DNA of 56,995 nucleotides. It comes from Longimicrobiales bacterium. GTDB lineage: Bacteria; Gemmatimonadota; Gemmatimonadetes; Longimicrobiales; RSA9. A program made the translations under genes and the position numbers. The notes under the pieces are model-generated. The model had not been told where the DNA came from. It ran no database searches and was given only the letters and a program-made list of their open reading frames with translations. The DNA is taken from positions 1 through 56,995 of the forward strand of contig JBDSPG010000045.1 of NCBI GenBank assembly GCA_039912685.1. The letters run 5' to 3'. Below, piece after piece: positions 2,768 through 26,861 of this stretch (position 1 is the first letter of the stretch; each line of letters starts with the position of its first letter).

Positions 2768-3547
2768 ATGAGCACCCTTGAAAACCCGGTGGCCTGGGTC
2801 GGTCGGGCCGCGATTCGTTCGACGAGCGGGATAGGCCGTTTCGGCACATTCAGCCTGCGGTTCGCGCGGTCCTTCCGGGACGTCGGGACGTGGGCCCGCC
2901 TCGTCGTCATCCAGATGGCAAAGCTGGGCGTGCAGTCCCTTCCCATCGCCCTCTTCATTGCCGTGTTCACCGGCGCAGTCCTCGCGCTGCAGGCGTCCTA
3001 CACGTTCTCGGGGACGGTACCCAAGTATTTCGTCGGTGCACTTGTCGGCAAGACGATCATCCTCGAGCTGGGTCCGGTGCTGACAGGCCTCGCGCTGGCG
3101 GGTCGCGTCGGCGCCAATATCGCGGCCGAAATCGGTACCATGCGCGTCACCGAGCAGATCGATGCGCTCGAAACGCTGGGCTATGATCCTGTGGCGTATC
3201 TGGTGGTTCCGCGAGTCGTAGCGGCCACGCTGATGTTCCCGGTTGTCATCGCGTTCTCGGACGCCGTCGGCATTGCGGGCGGCTGGGTCACGTCGATCAA
3301 CCTCCTGGACATGTCGACACAGGAGTTCGTACGTGGCCTGCGCCTGTTCTTTGTTCCATTCGACGTCCAGTTCTCGCTAATCAAGGCGGCATCGTTCGGT
3401 CTGGCTGTCACTCTCATCGGATGCTTCTACGGATTCGCGACGAGCGGGGGCGCGGACGGTGTCGGGCGGTCCACAACGCAGGCAGTCGTGGTTGGCAGCA
3501 TGATGATTCTCGTGCTCGACGCGTTCTGGGCGGTTGCGCTGCTGTGA
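2768..3547 (+). CDS. mlaE: Mla/ABC transporter permease MlaE
   Basis: 259 aa polytopic membrane protein. LELGPVLTGLALAGRVGANIAAEIGTMRVTEQIDALETLG is the conserved MlaE core. Confidence 0.85.
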   Translation: MSTLENPVAWVGRAAIRSTSGIGRFGTFSLRFARSFRDVGTWARLVVIQMAKLGVQSLPIALFIAVFTGAVLALQASYTFSGTVPKYFVGALVGKTIILELGPVLTGLALAGRVGANIAAEIGTMRVTEQIDALETLGYDPVAYLVVPRVVAATLMFPVVIAFSDAVGIAGGWVTSINLLDMSTQEFVRGLRLFFVPFDVQFSLIKAASFGLAVTLIGCFYGFATSGGADGVGRSTTQAVVVGSMMILVLDAFWAVALL

Positions 3548-23124: not shown

Positions 23125-23733
23125 ATGACTGTACTGGTTGCACTGCCGCTGCACGGCCAGGCGCGTCTGCAGTTAAAAGCCGGGTTCGCCGCGTCGGGTC
23201 TGGTGCTCCGCGATCAAATCGCAACGCCAGGGCTGCGCAGCCTGCTGGGAAATGGTGTGGACGAAGATGTGAGCGCGCGCTTCAAGCCCGCGGCCATGTT
23301 GGGGCTGGGCGTGGAGGTCCCGCTCCGGCCGGGTACGCAAGTGATGTTCGCGGGCAGCTGGTCAGGTACGACGCTGGAAGCGGAGGACGGCGCGGGCACG
23401 CGTGACGTACAGGACGTGTCCGTGATCCAGGCGGTATTCGGAATGCGACGGATGATCGGCGATTTGCTGGAGGCCAGCGGCGGTTTTGGCGCGATCTACT
23501 TTTCAGGCGACGGTCGCGGACTCATGGCGGGCGGTGCGGATGTGGCGCCGCTTGTGGAGGCAGGCCTGGGCGGTGGTTGGAACAGCGGCGAGCATCGCAT
23601 CCACGTGCGCGCCGTCGGGCAGTTGCACCGCTTCGGCACAGAGGCGATCACGTCGATCGGTGGCCAAAGCGGAAACGTGAAGCGCTACGGCATCGAGGCC
23701 GCGTTCACATGGAAGGGCGCGGTGGCACGATGA
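23125..23733 (+). CDS. Hypothetical secreted protein, possible outer-membrane beta-barrel
   Basis: Alternating Gly/aromatic-rich strands (AAMLGLGVEV, AVFGMRR, GFGAIYFSG, RYGIEAAFTW C-terminus). Start uncertain: ATG 23125, or TTG 23095 which would give the signal peptide ILTTASSFFMTVLVALPLHGQA. The track start 22963 lies in AT-rich non-coding-looking sequence. Confidence 0.5.
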   Translation: MTVLVALPLHGQARLQLKAGFAASGLVLRDQIATPGLRSLLGNGVDEDVSARFKPAAMLGLGVEVPLRPGTQVMFAGSWSGTTLEAEDGAGTRDVQDVSVIQAVFGMRRMIGDLLEASGGFGAIYFSGDGRGLMAGGADVAPLVEAGLGGGWNSGEHRIHVRAVGQLHRFGTEAITSIGGQSGNVKRYGIEAAFTWKGAVAR

Positions 23734-24422
23734 AACCGCTTCGCATGTTCGCGCTCGCCGTAGCACTCACGAGTGGCGCCGCATTCATTTCCGCATGTGA
23801 GTCACCGACACTGCCGCCGCGTTCGACAACTGATGTATACGACTTCCGGCTTCGCAGCGACACGTTCCATATTTTTCACTGGCCTGCCGGCACGGACGTG
23901 CGCGTGTTCATCTACGCAACGAAGCCGGCGCGCGTCGACTCGATGGCCGCGTCGTTCGAGCGCGGTGCTGCGATGTGGAACGCATACTCACTGTTCGGCG
24001 AGTACCAGCTCGTTCGCGCGCAGACTATTGACGAAGCCGACGTCGTGGTTCGCTGGTCCGACGATCTCGCACCTGTCGACGACAGCGAATGCTCGCCGAC
24101 ATTCTCCAGTGGCGTCACCACATTCTGCATCGATGATCTGGATGCCACGCCCCTCCGCCTCGCCACATTCCCGCCGCTCCCTGCCGCGCCCGGCGCGGAA
24201 GGCGTAAAAATGCTCGTGACGATCCTCGCCTCACAGGCGACCATCCCCGGCCGCATCGACCGACTCCTCGCACACGAGCTCGGTCACGTACTCGGCATTG
24301 GGCAACACTCGCTGAACAGAAATGACCTGATGTACGGCGATCCGGTAGTTGACGTACTCAGTCGACGGGATATCGCAACGGTGCAGGTTCTCTACCATAC
24401 CACGGCGGACGTGTTTCCCTGA
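23730..24422 (+). CDS. Zinc metalloprotease lipoprotein (metzincin/matrixin-like)
   Basis: ATG 23730 (ATGA overlap with the upstream stop). Lipobox LTSGAAFISAC. Zinc motif HELGHVLGIGQHS (HExxHxxGxxH). Confidence 0.75.
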   Translation: MKPLRMFALAVALTSGAAFISACESPTLPPRSTTDVYDFRLRSDTFHIFHWPAGTDVRVFIYATKPARVDSMAASFERGAAMWNAYSLFGEYQLVRAQTIDEADVVVRWSDDLAPVDDSECSPTFSSGVTTFCIDDLDATPLRLATFPPLPAAPGAEGVKMLVTILASQATIPGRIDRLLAHELGHVLGIGQHSLNRNDLMYGDPVVDVLSRRDIATVQVLYHTTADVFP

Positions 24423-24440: not shown

Positions 24441-24469
24441 TTGACGAGTAAGAAAGGATTCACTAGAGT
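24441..24469 (+). promoter_or_regulatory. Sigma-70-like promoter candidate for the ncRNA
   Basis: -35 TTGACG (24441-46), 17-nt spacer, -10 TAGAGT (24464-69). Confidence 0.4.
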
Positions 24470-24475
24470 CTAGAA

Positions 24476-24675
24476 GCGTCAAGAAACGCACTGAAGGAAT
24501 ACTTTTTGGGCCTACAAGTACAACCGTTGGGGCTGACTCCAGCCCGGGACATCATGCCTCGCGAGAGGAAGGTGGAAGGGGAGGGGTGGTCACCAGTCGA
24601 TAACGACTGGGCTCCAAAAAAACCTTCAGTGCGTTTCGTTCTGGCCCGCCCCGGCATCGGGGCGGGCGTTTTTTT
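24476..24675 (+). ncRNA. Structured ~200-nt small RNA candidate (6S-RNA-like architecture; identity unverified)
   Basis: Perfect 15-bp long-range helix 24483-97/24623-37, extended by a 10-bp helix 24503-12/24610-20. Central GNRA hairpin 24557-68 and an internal hairpin 24594-609. Intrinsic terminator at the 3' end. The 5' end is estimated from the promoter only. Confidence 0.6.
24644..24675 (+). terminator. Rho-independent terminator
   Basis: GCCCGCCCCG (24644-53) pairs with CGGGGCGGGC (24658-67), loop GCAT, followed by G plus T7 (24669-75). Confidence 0.85.
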
Positions 24676-24702
24676 GCCCCTGCCCGGCTGTTGGTCCATA
24701 AT
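24674..24702 (+). promoter_or_regulatory. Sigma-70-like promoter candidate for the pterin operon
   Basis: -35 TTGCCC (24674-79), 17-nt spacer, -10 CATAAT (24697-702), about 48 nt upstream of ATG 24750. Confidence 0.35.
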
Positions 24703-24749: not shown

Positions 24750-25166
24750 ATGGCACGGGTACGGGTCACGAGAAGGCTGCATTTCGCGGCGGCGCACCGG
24801 CTGCGTCGTGAGGATTGGAGCGAGGAGAAGAATCGCGAGGTCTTCGGACTCTGCGCGAGTCCGAACTGGCACGGTCACAACTACGAGTTGGATGTGACGG
24901 TGGAAGGCGAAGTGGATCCAGCGACGGGCTTCGTGATCGACCTGGGGCATGTTCGGGAGCTGGTGGAGGCGCGGGTCGTAAAGGACTTGGACCATCGCAA
25001 CCTGAACATGGACGTGGATTGGCTCAGCGATGTGAATCCGACGACAGAGAACCTTGTCGTCGGGATGTGGCAAAGGATTGTGGATGGTCTGCCATCGGGC
25101 GTGTGCCTGGCACGTCTGGTGTTGTGGGAGACGCCGCGCAATTACGTGGAGTATACGGGAGAATAG
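24750..25166 (+). CDS. 6-pyruvoyl-tetrahydropterin synthase, PTPS-I-like (COG0720)
   Basis: AGGAG 5 nt upstream of ATG 24750. RRLHFAAAHRL, C-x5-HGH motif (LCASPNWHGHNYEL), DHRNLNMDV...TTENLVV. Confidence 0.85.
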   Translation: MARVRVTRRLHFAAAHRLRREDWSEEKNREVFGLCASPNWHGHNYELDVTVEGEVDPATGFVIDLGHVRELVEARVVKDLDHRNLNMDVDWLSDVNPTTENLVVGMWQRIVDGLPSGVCLARLVLWETPRNYVEYTGE

Positions 25167-25175
25167 GGCGAGATT

Positions 25176-25757
25176 ATGGGACTGCGCGATGTAGAGGTGC
25201 CGGAGCTCGTGGCCGAGCTGCTGCGGCGTCTGGGCGAGGATCCGGAGCGTGACGGTCTGGCGAGAACGCCGGAGCGGGTGCATCGCAGTCTGGAGTTCCT
25301 GACGCAGGGCTACGCGATGTCGGTGCCGGATGTGATCGGGGACGCGATGTTCAATGAGGATCATCACAATATGGTGATCGTAAAGGACATTGAGATGTAC
25401 TCGCTGTGCGAGCACCATCTGCTGCCGTTCTTCGGGAAGGTGCACGTCGCATACATCCCGAACGGCAAGATTGTGGGACTGTCGAAAATTCCGCGCATTG
25501 TCGACGTATTTGCGCGTCGCCTGCAGGTGCAGGAGCGGCTCACGACACAAATCCTGGATGCGCTGGTGGATGTCCTGCAGCCGGAGGGCGTCGGTGTCGT
25601 GATCGAGGCATATCACCTCTGCATGATGATGCGCGGCGTGCAGAAGCAGAACTCGAAGACGATCACAAGCGCGATGCACGGTGCGTTCCTGGAGGACAAC
25701 CGCACGCGCGAGGAATTCCTGCGTCTCACATCGTCGACACATGGCATCCTCGGCTGA
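25176..25757 (+). CDS. folE: GTP cyclohydrolase I (FolE type I)
   Basis: [59 protein letters not shown]. Confidence 0.93.
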
Positions 25758-26472
25758 TCCCGGAGGCGTGCTGCACGGCTGCAGTGCGCTGGTTACGGGC
25801 GGCTCGCGCGGCATCGGTCGCGCGATTGCCGAAGCGCTGGTGTCAGCCGGCGTGCGCACGATCATTATGGCGCGCGATGCCGCAGGCCTGGATGCCACGT
25901 GCGCGGAAATCGGAGCAGAGTCGATCGTTTGCGACGTTGCAGATCCCGCTGGAGTCGAGCTCATGCTGGATGAAATCGTCGTGCGGCTCGCGGGTGCGCC
26001 GGACATCCTGGTGAATGCTGCAGGTGCATTCACGGTTGGCGCGGCGGCGGACACGCCGCTCGCAGTGTTCGATGCAGCGCTCGCGACGAACCTGCGTGGT
26101 CCATTTCAACTGATCGCAGGACTGCTGCCGCACATGCAGACTCGTGGCACGGGACACATCGTCAGCATCGGCTCCATCGCGGGCCGTATCGCGTTCGCAG
26201 GGAACAGCTCGTATTCGGCCGGCAAGTTTGGGCTCCGCGGACTGCATGCCGTACTCGACGCAGAGCTGACGGGAACGGGCATCCGCACGACACTGATCGA
26301 GCCGGCCGCGACCGACACCACGCTGTGGGACAGCATAGATCCTGCTGCAACACCGGGACTGCCGGAACGGAGCGCAATGCTTGCACCTGAGGCCGTCGCA
26401 GAAGCCGTACTCTTCGCGCTCACGCGAGCGCCGGATGTCGCCATCCGCAACATCATCATGGAGCGATCCTGA
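25741..26472 (+). CDS. SDR-family oxidoreductase (candidate sepiapterin/pterin reductase by context)
   Basis: ATG 25741, 17-nt overlap with fol[20 protein letters not shown], catalytic YSAGKFG. Confidence 0.8.
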
Positions 26473-26474
26473 GC

Positions 26475-26861
26475 ATGTTCGTCGTTACAGTGCAAGCCCA
26501 TTATGACAGCGCGCACTTCCTGCGCAACTACCACGGCAAGTGCGAGCGCCTGCACGGGCACCGTTACGTCGTGGAGGTCGCGCTCGCGTCAGAGAAGCTG
26601 AACGAGTCGGGGATTGCATTCGACTTCGTCGACGTCAAGAAGCATGTGCGCGAGCTGGCGAACCACCTTGATCATCAGAACATCAATGACCTGCCGCCGT
26701 TCGATGCGATCGAGCCTTCCGCCGAGAACCAGGCGCGCTGGTTCTATGACGAGCTCGATCGTGTGCTGCCGACTGATATGGCGGCCGCGCTGCTGTACGT
26801 GAAAGTGTGGGAGACACCGACACAATTCGCGATGTATTCCGAACGGAGCCTCTGGATATGA
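26475..26861 (+). CDS. queD: 6-carboxy-5,6,7,8-tetrahydropterin synthase QueD-type (COG0720)
   Basis: 128 aa. C-x3-HGH motif (GKCERLHGHRY), LDHQNIND, SAENQARW. Confidence 0.83.
   Translation: MFVVTVQAHYDSAHFLRNYHGKCERLHGHRYVVEVALASEKLNESGIAFDFVDVKKHVRELANHLDHQNINDLPPFDAIEPSAENQARWFYDELDRVLPTDMAAALLYVKVWETPTQFAMYSERSLWI

What the first reader, a model, noticed from the sequence alone, without database searches (positions are those of the whole stretch)
24441..24702. Promoter- and terminator-bounded ~200-nt structured RNA with 6S-RNA-like architecture upstream of the pterin operon
Read directly from the sequence:
- Promoter: -35 TTGACG / 17 nt / -10 TAGAGT.
- A perfect 15-bp long-range helix, GAAACGCACTGAAGG (24483-97) with CCTTCAGTGCGTTTC (24623-37).
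- After a small internal loop, the helix extends: TTTTTGGGCC (24503-12) with GGC(T)CCAAAAA (24610-20).
- An apical hairpin CCTC-GCGA-GAGG (24557-68, GNRA loop) sits exactly at the midpoint.
- ACTCCAGCCC (24536-45) can pair with GGGGAGGGGT (24578-87), and CATC (24550-53) with GGTG (24571-74).
- This leaves two unpaired strands of about 22 nt each (24513-35 and 24588-609). The second carries its own hairpin CAGTCG-ATAA-CGACTG.
- The RNA ends in a 10-bp GC stem plus T7 terminator.
The overall layout is closing stem / large central bubble / terminal stem, which is the established architecture of 6S RNA. A separate TTGCCC-17-CATAAT promoter-like element sits between the terminator and the PTPS gene, which favours an independent sRNA over a leader. 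An alternative local hairpin GGGCTG-ACTC-CAGCCC (24530-45) also exists. So does a purine/GGA-rich tract, GAGGAAGGTGGAAGGGGAGGGG, that could instead pair with the terminator arm GCCCGCCCC. Identity is therefore open: 6S, another protein-binding sRNA, or a new class.
Basis: partly seen in the sequence, partly recalled or inferred. Interest (0 to 1): 0.72.

Follow-up and report, generated by a model that had tools for sequence, protein, structure and literature searches.

The report
6S RNA gene of Gemmatimonadota
This is most likely the 6S RNA gene, a small RNA that mimics an open promoter and sequesters RNA polymerase, in a poorly studied phylum where the standard Rfam model misses it; it is ordinary in kind, but it usually sits just upstream of a pterin-synthesis operon.

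Summary
Window 24483-24637 (+) forms a long irregular hairpin. It has a sigma-70-type promoter upstream (24441-24469) and an intrinsic terminator downstream (24644-24675).

The RNA is not a one-off. It is conserved in 50 of 54 Gemmatimonadota genome loci and in about 115 metagenome contigs. Covariation is strong: 35 of 47 pairs show compensatory changes, and 89.6% of cells are paired against 42-54% in slid controls.

The architecture is a closing stem, a 16/15-nt central bubble flanked by invariant G-C pairs, and an apical stem. The bubble-edge motifs are UUGAGCC-N-A-Y-R and GGCUUCAA. Rfam 6S (RF00013) is the only family that hits repeatedly: 13 family members score 18.8-34.3 bits, all below the 46.4-bit gathering score.

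All of this points to 6S RNA. The pyrimidine that aligns with E. coli U44, the pRNA start, is conserved in 47 of 47 sequences.

The RNA also occurs with a convergent gene or an unrelated gene downstream, so it is a free-standing sRNA and not a dedicated leader. Still, 82% of loci found by searching for the RNA itself have PTPS or GTP cyclohydrolase I directly downstream, usually with no recognisable promoter in between. This resembles the proteobacterial ssrS-ygfA arrangement.

Verdict: a new member of a known kind, of modest interest.

The parts
24441..24469 (+). Promoter of the RNA gene: -35 TTGACG (24441-46), 17-nt spacer, -10 TAGAGT (24464-69). The predicted transcription start is near 24476.
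   Evidence: Consensus scan. A site matching at least 9 of 12 positions lies at the equivalent position in 25 of 46 homologous loci, against 0.3 expected from shuffles (sequences). The transcription start is inferred.
24483..24497 (+). Closing stem, 5' arm. It pairs with 24623-24637.
   Evidence: Perfect 15 bp. All 15 family-level pairs of this helix show compensatory changes (helix 1).
24503..24512 (+). Helix bordering the bubble, 5' arm: TTTTTGGGCC (family consensus UUUUUGAGCC). It pairs with 24610-24620, with T24613 bulged. Under the 6S model this is the predicted pRNA template stretch.
   Evidence: G35-C151, C36-G150 and C37-G149 are invariant or nearly so, and A-U to G-C swaps occur at columns 34/153. 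It aligns with E. coli 6S CCCCUGAGCC.
24513..24528 (+). Central bubble, 5' strand: TACAAGTACAACCGTT. C24515 aligns with E. coli U44 and is the predicted pRNA initiation site.
   Evidence: Unpaired in the consensus structure. Column 39 is A in 46 of 47 sequences, column 40 is a pyrimidine in 47 of 47, and column 41 is a purine in 46 of 47. E. coli U44 is the pRNA start (PMC1874619).
24529..24546 (+). Internal stem on the apical side of the bubble, 5' arm. It pairs with 24578-24594.
   Evidence: Helix 3: 15 pairs, 10 with compensatory changes, 89.2% paired. G58-C129, G59-C128 and G60-C126 are nearly invariant.
24547..24577 (+). Apical stem-loop: CATC 24550-53 pairs with GGTG 24571-74, and CCTC 24557-60 pairs with GAGG 24565-68. 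The loop is GCGA.
   Evidence: Helices 4 and 5. The CAUGCC...GGAAG motif matches the Rfam 6S consensus and E. coli 6S.
24578..24594 (+). Internal stem, 3' arm: GGGGAGGGGTGGTCACC, including the conserved GGUCACC.
   Evidence: helix 3. It aligns with the CCCACC segment of the Rfam 6S model.
24595..24609 (+). Central bubble, 3' strand. In this lineage it can form its own hairpin, (CC)AGTCG-ATAA-CGACT(GG).
   Evidence: The segment folds at -11.3 kcal/mol. A comparable hairpin is found in only 16 of 47 family members, and there is no fixed-column covariation.
24610..24637 (+). 3' arms of the bubble-bordering helix (GGC-T-CCAAAAA, 24610-20) and of the closing stem (24623-37).
   Evidence: The bulged U (column 152) is invariant in 47 of 47 sequences.
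24644..24675 (+). Intrinsic terminator: 10-bp all-GC stem with a 4-nt loop (24644-67), followed by the T7 run.
   Evidence: A GC-rich hairpin followed by a T-rich tail of variable quality lies 0-10 nt after the closing stem in most homologs.
24674..24702 (+). Second promoter-like site, TTGCCC-17-CATAAT, upstream of PTPS. It is lineage-specific and may not be functional.
   Evidence: A comparable site is found in only 2 of 46 loci, against 0.2 expected.
24750..26861 (+). Downstream pterin operon (context only): PTPS (24750-25166), GTP cyclohydrolase I (25176-25757), short-chain dehydrogenase (ORF 25681-26472), and a second PTPS (26475-26861).
   Evidence: Pfam matches: PF01242 at 2.6e-33, PF01227 at 8.1e-77, PF00106 at 1.6e-43, PF01242 at 2.9e-38.

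Best explanation
The element is the 6S RNA (SsrS) gene of a Longimicrobiales-type Gemmatimonadota bacterium.

It is transcribed from its own sigma-A/sigma-70-type promoter, starting near 24476, and ends at the intrinsic terminator near 24675. The RNA folds into a rod: a closing stem, a 16/15-nt central bubble and an apical stem. This shape mimics an open promoter.

By analogy with characterised 6S RNAs, it would bind the housekeeping RNA polymerase holoenzyme in its active site and sequester it when nutrients are scarce. On outgrowth it would be released when the polymerase uses the 5' bubble strand as a template for a short product RNA. The predicted start is opposite C24515, giving 5'-GUAGGCCCAAAAAG-3'.

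Shown here:
- the conserved structure, with covariation;
- the conserved promoter and terminator;
- the 6S-type motifs;
- that the RNA can stand alone.

Inferred, not shown:
- RNA polymerase binding;
- pRNA synthesis;
- co-transcription of the pterin operon by read-through of the terminator.
For: 1. Family and structure.
- nhmmer and covariance-model searches find the RNA in 50 Gemmatimonadota genome loci.
- A motif scan that started from the RNA itself found it in metagenome contigs.
- 47 pairs are 89.6% paired, against 42-54% with slid partners. 35 pairs show double changes. The covariation score is 0.424 against 0.09-0.14 for slid controls, and no shuffle of 500 reached it.

2. 6S-defining layout.
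- Closing stem, central bubble and terminal stem, with invariant G-C pairs on both sides of the bubble. This is the published consensus description (PMC4064990, PMC3299989).

3. Rfam RF00013.
- It is the only family that hits repeatedly, always exactly on the element and mostly over the full model length.
- Scores: window 18.8 bits; L054 34.3, L057 30.9, L053 29.2, L033 28.9, L009 27.8, L035 24.1; L094 and L138 32.8, L199 27.5, L106 23.4, L121 20.1.
- The best E-values are 0.003-0.006, after correction for 4227 families and about 120 kb searched.

4. Motifs shared with E. coli ssrS.
- UGAGCC-N-A-Y-R at the 5' bubble edge. The Gemmatimonadaceae version, UGAGCCGAUA, is identical to E. coli.
- GG(C)UUCAA at the 3' edge, and CAUGC...GAAGCC in the apical region.
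- The position aligned to E. coli U44, the pRNA start (PMC1874619), is a pyrimidine in 47 of 47 sequences. This fits purine-initiated pRNA synthesis (PMC3299989).

5. Reciprocal search.
- The Gemmatimonadota model R1 ranks the annotated E. coli ssrS first in 49 kb searched on both strands, with a full-length alignment. The score is weak.

6. Stand-alone gene.
- In L008 the RNA is inverted and converges on the upstream gene.
- In L097 and L105, and probably L086, L146, L168, L169 and L190 (gene orientation not checked in these), a Na/Ca-exchanger gene on the opposite strand follows the RNA.
- In L161 and L187 the next gene is on the opposite strand. In L120, L180 and L197 a cytochrome b gene follows.

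7. Strand.
- The promoter and terminator orientation is conserved.
- There are many G-U pairs, for example UG in 17 sequences at columns 11/173, GU in 15 at 12/172 and UG in 19 at 64/123. These would be C-A mismatches on the other strand.
- The model scores 124 bits on the + strand and 20 bits on the - strand.
Against: - No family member reaches the Rfam gathering score of 46.4 bits. The window's own hit is 18.8 bits with E = 0.11, even in a 501-nt search, and it disappears in a whole-window scan.
- The reciprocal search is not robust. R1 gives 11.6 bits, E = 0.11, rank 1. The richer model R2 gives 11.0 bits, E = 0.52, rank 4.
- No expression data, RNAP-binding data or pRNA data are available.
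- I could not scan any whole Gemmatimonadota genome, so a second, canonical 6S gene elsewhere is not excluded.
- The tight linkage to the pterin operon (82%) and the lack of a recognisable promoter in between (44 of 46 loci) leave room for an additional cis role.
Confidence: 0.85

Rival explanations
1. A cis-acting leader or riboswitch. It would sense a pterin-, folate- or GTP-related signal and control the downstream PTPS/folE operon through the terminator at 24644-75.
For: - Position: the RNA lies directly upstream of PTPS or FolE, on the same strand, in 50 of 54 genome loci. In the search that started from the RNA itself, this holds for 84 of 102 informative loci.
- A terminator sits between the RNA and the operon.
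- No sigma-70-like promoter is recognisable between the terminator and PTPS in 44 of 46 loci.
- Known riboswitches do control folE and queD-type genes (general knowledge: THF-II, preQ1).
Against: - No riboswitch family matches, even at E <= 10.
- The closing stem is 25 bp of very stable pairing. It does not overlap the terminator, so no expression-platform competition is visible.
- The terminator sequences differ between lineages, so the proposed pairing between the purine tract and the terminator arm is not conserved. That tract is also the 3' strand of a covarying helix.
- At least 9 confirmed family members have a convergent or unrelated downstream gene, or none on the same strand: L008, L097, L105, L161, L187, L120, L180, L197, L175.
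- The conserved nucleotides match 6S positions rather than forming a junction or pocket.
Confidence: 0.05
2. A lineage-specific trans-acting sRNA that has a rod shape but is not a 6S homolog and does not bind RNA polymerase. Examples would be a base-pairing sRNA or an RNA that titrates a protein.
For: - All Rfam 6S scores are below the gathering score.
- The reciprocal model search is statistically insignificant.
- Long hairpins with an internal loop can arise independently.
Against: - 13 family members hit RF00013 and no other family recurs.
- The matches fall on the functionally critical bubble-edge motifs and apical motif, not only on generic helices.
- The pyrimidine at the U44-equivalent position is conserved in 47 of 47 sequences.
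- No other 6S candidate was found in the sequence available.
Confidence: 0.08
3. A DNA-level element, such as a palindromic repeat, a MITE or a protein-binding inverted repeat, rather than an RNA.
For: - It contains a perfect 15-bp inverted repeat.
- Both strands fold equally well: z = -6.05 and z = -6.23.
Against: - It is single-copy in the window and single-copy per locus.
- It is orthologous across a phylum, with compensatory changes and many G-U pairs that work on one strand only.
- It is framed by a conserved promoter and terminator.
Confidence: 0.02

Closest known systems
6S RNA / SsrS (Rfam RF00013; E. coli ssrS, B. subtilis 6S-1)
   Same: - Core of about 155 nt (about 200 nt including the terminator).
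- Closing stem, large central bubble and apical stem.
- Invariant G-C pairs on both sides of the bubble.
- UGAGCC-N-A-Y-R at the 5' bubble edge, with the Y aligned to E. coli U44.
- GG(C)UUCAA at the 3' edge.
- CAUGCC...GGAAG apical motif.
- An optional hairpin in the 3' bubble strand.
- Its own sigma-70-type promoter.
   Different: - It scores 18.8-34.3 bits against a gathering score of 46.4, so Rfam-based annotation would miss it.
- The closing stem is shorter than in the model: about 12 model positions are deleted in the window's alignment.
- The bubble-bordering helix has an invariant bulged U where E. coli has a G-U pair.
- It ends in an intrinsic terminator. The E. coli 6S 3' end comes from processing of a transcript that terminates in ygfA in a rho-dependent manner (PMC3299989).
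The ssrS-ygfA (fau) arrangement of proteobacteria
   Same: A 6S gene lies immediately upstream of, and on the same strand as, a gene of folate/pterin metabolism. The linkage is conserved across a large clade. In most loci no recognisable promoter lies in between, which suggests co-transcription.
   Different: - The partner genes are PTPS, GTP cyclohydrolase I and a short-chain dehydrogenase, not 5-formyl-THF cyclo-ligase.
- No fau homolog was found in the window or in any of the 200 loci by tblastn.
- A hairpin terminator lies between the RNA and the operon.
Ms1 RNA of Actinobacteria
   Same: A rod-like RNA with a central bubble that is associated with RNA polymerase (PMC9130861).
   Different: Ms1 is about 300 nt, has extra terminal hairpins, binds the RNAP core and is restricted to Actinobacteria. 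Neither the sequence nor Rfam links it to this RNA.
Riboswitches upstream of folE/queD-type genes (THF-II 'folE motif', preQ1 classes)
   Same: The genomic position, upstream of GTP cyclohydrolase I or PTPS genes, with a terminator in between.
   Different: - No model matches.
- This RNA is much larger and rod-shaped.
- There is no overlap between an aptamer and the terminator.
- The RNA also occurs without any downstream gene.

Membership tests
6S RNA (SsrS, RF00013) | The score reaches the curated Rfam gathering score (46.4 bits). | tested here: not met
   The window scores 18.8 bits. The best homologs score 34.3 and 32.8 bits. There are no hits at gathering in the window or in 40 loci. The hits do recur: 13 family members match, always on the element, with best E-values of 0.003-0.006.
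6S RNA (SsrS, RF00013) | A largely double-stranded rod made of a closing stem, a large single-stranded central bubble and a terminal stem-loop. | tested here: met
   The consensus structure is supported by covariation: 35 of 47 pairs have compensatory changes, and 89.6% of cells are paired against 42-54% in slid controls. The bubble is 16 nt and 15 nt in the window.
6S RNA (SsrS, RF00013) | Conserved G-C pairs flank the bubble on both sides (PMC4064990, citing Barrick 2005). | tested here: met
   Closing-stem side: G35-C151 in 47 of 47 sequences, C36-G150 in 47 of 47, C37-G149 in 46 of 47. Apical side: G58-C129 in 46 of 47, G59-C128 in 42 (plus 5 G-U), G60-C126 in 43.
6S RNA (SsrS, RF00013) | A conserved sequence block at the upstream edge of the bubble, containing the pRNA start (CR I, U44 in E. 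coli; PMC1874619). | tested here: met
   UUGAGCC is invariant or nearly so. It is followed by N, then A (46 of 47), Y (47 of 47) and R (46 of 47). This aligns with E. coli CUGAGCC-G-A-U44-A.
6S RNA (SsrS, RF00013) | Reciprocal detection of a bona fide 6S by a model built from this family. | tested here: inconclusive
   R1 ranks E. coli ssrS first of 63 hits, with a full-length alignment, but only 11.6 bits and E = 0.11. R2 ranks it fourth, at 11.0 bits and E = 0.52.
6S RNA (SsrS, RF00013) | An independent, abundant transcript of about 150-200 nt. | tested here: inconclusive
   The conserved promoter (25 of 46 loci with at least 9 of 12 matches, against 0.3 expected) and terminator predict an RNA of about 200 nt. 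The RNA occurs without a downstream gene. No expression data are available.
6S RNA (SsrS, RF00013) | Binds the housekeeping RNAP holoenzyme and templates pRNA synthesis. | not testable with these tools
   This needs RIP-seq or co-purification, and small-RNA sequencing on outgrowth.
Riboswitch / cis-regulatory leader | Always located in the 5' UTR of a regulated gene on the same strand. | tested here: not met
   Family members confirmed by the model have a convergent gene, an unrelated gene or no downstream gene in L008, L097, L105, L161, L187, L120, L180, L197 and others. 11 of 102 loci found from the RNA itself have no pterin gene downstream, and in 7 it lies 1.4-7.2 kb away.
Riboswitch / cis-regulatory leader | An expression platform whose terminator competes with part of the sensor. 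| tested here: not met
   The closing stem ends at 24637 and the terminator starts at 24644, so they do not overlap. The candidate anti-terminator tract lies in a covarying helix. Terminator sequences are not conserved.

The most novel reading that the evidence does not exclude
In Gemmatimonadota the 6S gene and the pterin operon (PTPS, GTP cyclohydrolase I, a sepiapterin-reductase-like dehydrogenase, a second PTPS) may form one transcription unit. The operon would be expressed mainly by read-through of the 6S terminator from the 6S promoter.

If so, this is a second and apparently independent case, after the proteobacterial ssrS-ygfA pair, of 6S RNA being coupled to pterin/folate metabolism. 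It would point to a functional link between the growth-phase control of RNA polymerase and GTP-derived cofactor synthesis, not to a historical accident.
Probability: 0.3. Interest if true: 0.5.

Novelty: new member of a known kind. Interest (0 to 1): 0.3.

Why it matters
Practical value. Rfam-based annotation does not call a 6S gene at this locus in these Gemmatimonadota: all 13 family members that match score below the gathering score. The alignment and model made here (A3, R1/R2) would fill that gap for a widespread soil and water phylum, and could extend the RF00013 seed.

Biological value. The role of the gene co-transcribed with E. coli 6S, ygfA, has been called enigmatic and an open question (PMC1874619). 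A distant phylum also keeps its 6S gene glued to pterin/folate-type genes, but to different ones. In most loci there is no visible promoter in between. This gives a second, comparative handle on that question. It does not change what is known about how 6S RNA works.

Tried and rejected
- Rfam at gathering on the window and on 40 loci found nothing relevant.
- The anti-hemB, toxic-sRNA, AgvB, suhB and Trp-leader matches at E <= 10 cover only the terminator hairpin and were dismissed.
- The MIR1858 and mir-2576 hits in L010 are a (GGGAGT)n/(ACTCCC)n palindrome downstream of the RNA, not the RNA itself.
- The reciprocal search of E. coli with R1 was suggestive. With the richer model R2, ssrS fell to rank 4, so I count this test as inconclusive.
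- The 3' bubble hairpin as a family feature was rejected: 16 of 47 sequences, 40% paired at fixed columns.
- The local hairpin at 24530-45 is compatible in most sequences (77% paired) but has little covariation. It may be an alternative conformer, but this is not established.
- A separate PTPS promoter as a general feature was rejected: 2 of 46 loci.
- A repeat or MITE was rejected: single copy.
- Linkage to ygfA/fau: tblastn found no hit in 200 loci or the window.
- Three of the metagenome pattern matches (L082, L165, L201) are chance hits, not family members.
- Literature searches for 6S RNA together with Gemmatimonadetes or Gemmatimonas found nothing. Wehner 2014 and Barrick 2005 are not held in the library. 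I therefore could not check whether a Gemmatimonas 6S candidate was already listed there.

Full report
**Observation**

- a TTGACG-17-TAGAGT promoter-like site at 24441-69;
- a perfect 15-bp long-range helix, 24483-97 with 24623-37;
- its extension, 24503-12 with 24610-20, with one bulged T;
- an apical CCTC-GCGA-GAGG hairpin at 24557-68;
- a 10-bp all-GC terminator stem with a T7 run at 24644-75.

The promoter/terminator scan finds both signals independently. The 202-nt stretch folds at -98.5 kcal/mol, z = -6.05 against dinucleotide-preserving shuffles. The reverse strand folds about as well (z = -6.23), so folding energy alone does not choose a strand. The 15-mer arm occurs nowhere else in the window.

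**Is it conserved?**

The downstream gene is a 6-pyruvoyl-tetrahydropterin synthase (PTPS). It is followed by GTP cyclohydrolase I, a short-chain dehydrogenase and a second PTPS. Using PTPS as bait I fetched 80 genome loci. The closest are Longimicrobiales and other Gemmatimonadota.

nhmmer with the window RNA finds a homolog just upstream of PTPS in about 40 of them. A covariance model built from 41 sequences (A1, R1) finds it in 50 Gemmatimonadota loci at 73-155 bits, and in none of the Bacteroidota or Rhodothermales loci. Four Gemmatimonadota loci lack it within 3 kb: L006, L020, L032 and L039.

**Structure**

On the model-guided alignment A3 (47 sequences), a 47-pair structure is 89.6% paired, against 42-54% when the 3' partners are slid by 1-3 columns.
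- 35 pairs carry compensatory double changes.
- The covariation score is 0.424, against 0.09-0.14 for the slid controls.
- None of 500 shuffles reaches it.

Every pair of the closing stem covaries. The layout is:
- a closing stem;
- a small internal loop;
- a 10-bp helix, UUUUUGAGCC with GGC-U-UCAAAAA;
- a central bubble, 16 nt and 15 nt in the window;
- an interrupted stem;
- an apical stem-loop.

G-C pairs directly flanking the bubble on both sides are invariant or nearly so. Abundant G-U pairs, together with 124 bits on the + strand against 20 bits on the - strand, fix the + strand as the RNA strand.

The alternative local hairpin at 24530-45 is sterically possible in most sequences but has little covariation.

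**Identity**

No Rfam family reaches its gathering score. At relaxed thresholds one family recurs, always exactly on the element and usually over the full model: 6S/SsrS, RF00013.
- Window: 18.8 bits.
- Six of 16 genome loci: 24.1-34.3 bits.
- Six of 17 metagenome loci: 20.1-32.8 bits.
- The best E-values, 0.003-0.006, are already corrected for 4227 families and about 120 kb searched.

All other weak hits are terminator look-alikes or low-complexity miRNA models.

The aligned positions are the ones that matter in 6S RNA. The 5' bubble edge, UUGAGCC-N-A-Y-R, corresponds to E. coli CUGAGCC-G-A-U44-A. In Gemmatimonadaceae the decamer UGAGCCGAUA is identical to E. coli. The 3' edge GGCUUCAA matches E. 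coli GGUUCAA. The apical CAUGCC...GGAAGC matches the 6S consensus.

E. coli U44 is the pRNA start and lies in the conserved CR I block (PMC1874619). The aligned column is a pyrimidine in 47 of 47 sequences. That is expected if the polymerase initiates a product RNA there with a purine (PMC3299989).

A reciprocal search of 49 kb around E. coli ssrS with R1 puts the annotated ssrS first, with a full-length alignment, but at only 11.6 bits and E = 0.11. With a second model carrying all 47 pairs (R2), ssrS is fourth (11.0 bits). I treat this test as inconclusive.

Taken together, membership of the 6S family by the curated Rfam threshold is not met. Every structural and motif criterion I could test is met.

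**Stand-alone sRNA or leader?**

A sigma-70-type promoter (TTGAC-17-TAnnnT, or a TATATT -10) sits at a fixed distance upstream. 25 of 46 loci match at least 9 of 12 positions, against 0.3 expected. A GC-rich hairpin with a T-rich tail follows the closing stem in most loci.

To remove the bias of having fished with PTPS, I scanned metagenome contigs with a motif taken from the RNA itself. There were 120 matches. Three are chance hits.

Of 102 informative loci:
- 84 (82%) have PTPS (75) or FolE (9) within about 520 nt downstream on the same strand;
- 7 have them 1.4-7.2 kb away;
- 11 have none.

R1 confirms the unlinked loci as genuine family members, at 52-132 bits.
- In L097 and L105 the next gene is a Na/Ca-exchanger gene on the opposite strand. 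L086, L146, L168, L169 and L190 look similar, but I did not check the gene orientation there.
- In L008 the RNA is inverted and converges on the upstream metalloprotease gene.
- In L161 and L187 the next gene is on the opposite strand. In L120, L180 and L197 a cytochrome b gene follows.

In those loci the RNA, which keeps its full structure, promoter and terminator, cannot be a 5' leader. Also, the closing stem does not overlap the terminator, and the purine tract proposed as an anti-terminator is the 3' strand of a covarying helix. A dedicated riboswitch is therefore unlikely.

**The pterin linkage**

The gap to PTPS is often only about 60-150 nt. In most genomes the pterin operon therefore has no recognisable promoter of its own, and may depend on read-through from the 6S promoter.

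This resembles the proteobacterial ssrS-ygfA unit, whose meaning is still described as enigmatic (PMC1874619; the linkage is summarised in PMC4064990 and PMC9130861). Here the partner is different, and no ygfA/fau homolog is present in the window or in any of the 200 loci. Co-transcription is an inference and was not tested.

**Verdict**

The element is very probably (about 0.85) the 6S RNA of Gemmatimonadota, a new member of a known kind that Rfam's threshold misses. I could not check whether earlier 6S surveys already list a Gemmatimonas candidate, because those papers are not in the library. I also could not scan whole genomes for a second 6S gene. Interest is modest. The most interesting residue is the conserved coupling to the pterin operon.

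Noticed in passing
L060:2840-2900 and L064:2828-2909 (Bacteroidota loci; PTPS starts at 3001): In two Chitinophaga/Bacteroidetes loci a different structured RNA lies directly upstream of the PTPS ortholog, in the position the 6S-like RNA occupies in Gemmatimonadota. It is Flavo-1 (RF01705), scoring 48.8 and 55.9 bits, above its gathering score of 42. Flavo-1 was not detected in the other Bacteroidota loci scanned.
   Followed up: no
L010:2757-2944: Between the RNA's terminator and PTPS in this MAG there is a palindrome of about 190 nt, built from tandem GGGAGT hexamers and their complement ACTCCC. Rfam picked it up as spurious MIR1858 and mir-2576 hits. It lengthens the RNA-to-PTPS gap to 265 nt.
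   Followed up: no
L008:1732-3246(-), L097:4290-5525(-), L105:921-2141(-): In a subset of lineages a Na/Ca-exchanger family gene (PF01699) is inserted between the RNA and the pterin operon, on the opposite strand. In L008 the RNA itself is inverted relative to PTPS.
   Followed up: partly
window 24750-25166 and 26475-26861: The operon carries two PTPS paralogs with different active-site spacing. The first reads C-ASPNW-HGH (Cx5HGH), which from memory resembles the eukaryotic BH4-type PTPS. The second reads C-ERL-HGH (Cx3HGH, QueD-like). Together with GTP cyclohydrolase I and a short-chain dehydrogenase, this suggests a tetrahydropterin pathway of the BH4 type plus a QueD-like activity (translations, Pfam).
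   Followed up: no
window 23727-24422 (+); also L008:617-1270, L115, L188: The upstream neighbour is a small HExxH protein that matches matrixin (Peptidase_M10) only weakly: 21 bits against a cut-off of 24. It appears to have a lipoprotein-like N-terminus. It is also the upstream neighbour of the RNA in several related loci.
   Followed up: no
L120, L180, L187, L197 (metagenome contigs): In one sub-lineage the RNA sits downstream of a gene that looks like a class II fumarase (judged from the sequence only, not checked with Pfam). In three of the four loci it is followed by a cytochrome b gene instead of the pterin operon. This is a second recurrent context for the RNA.
   Followed up: partly
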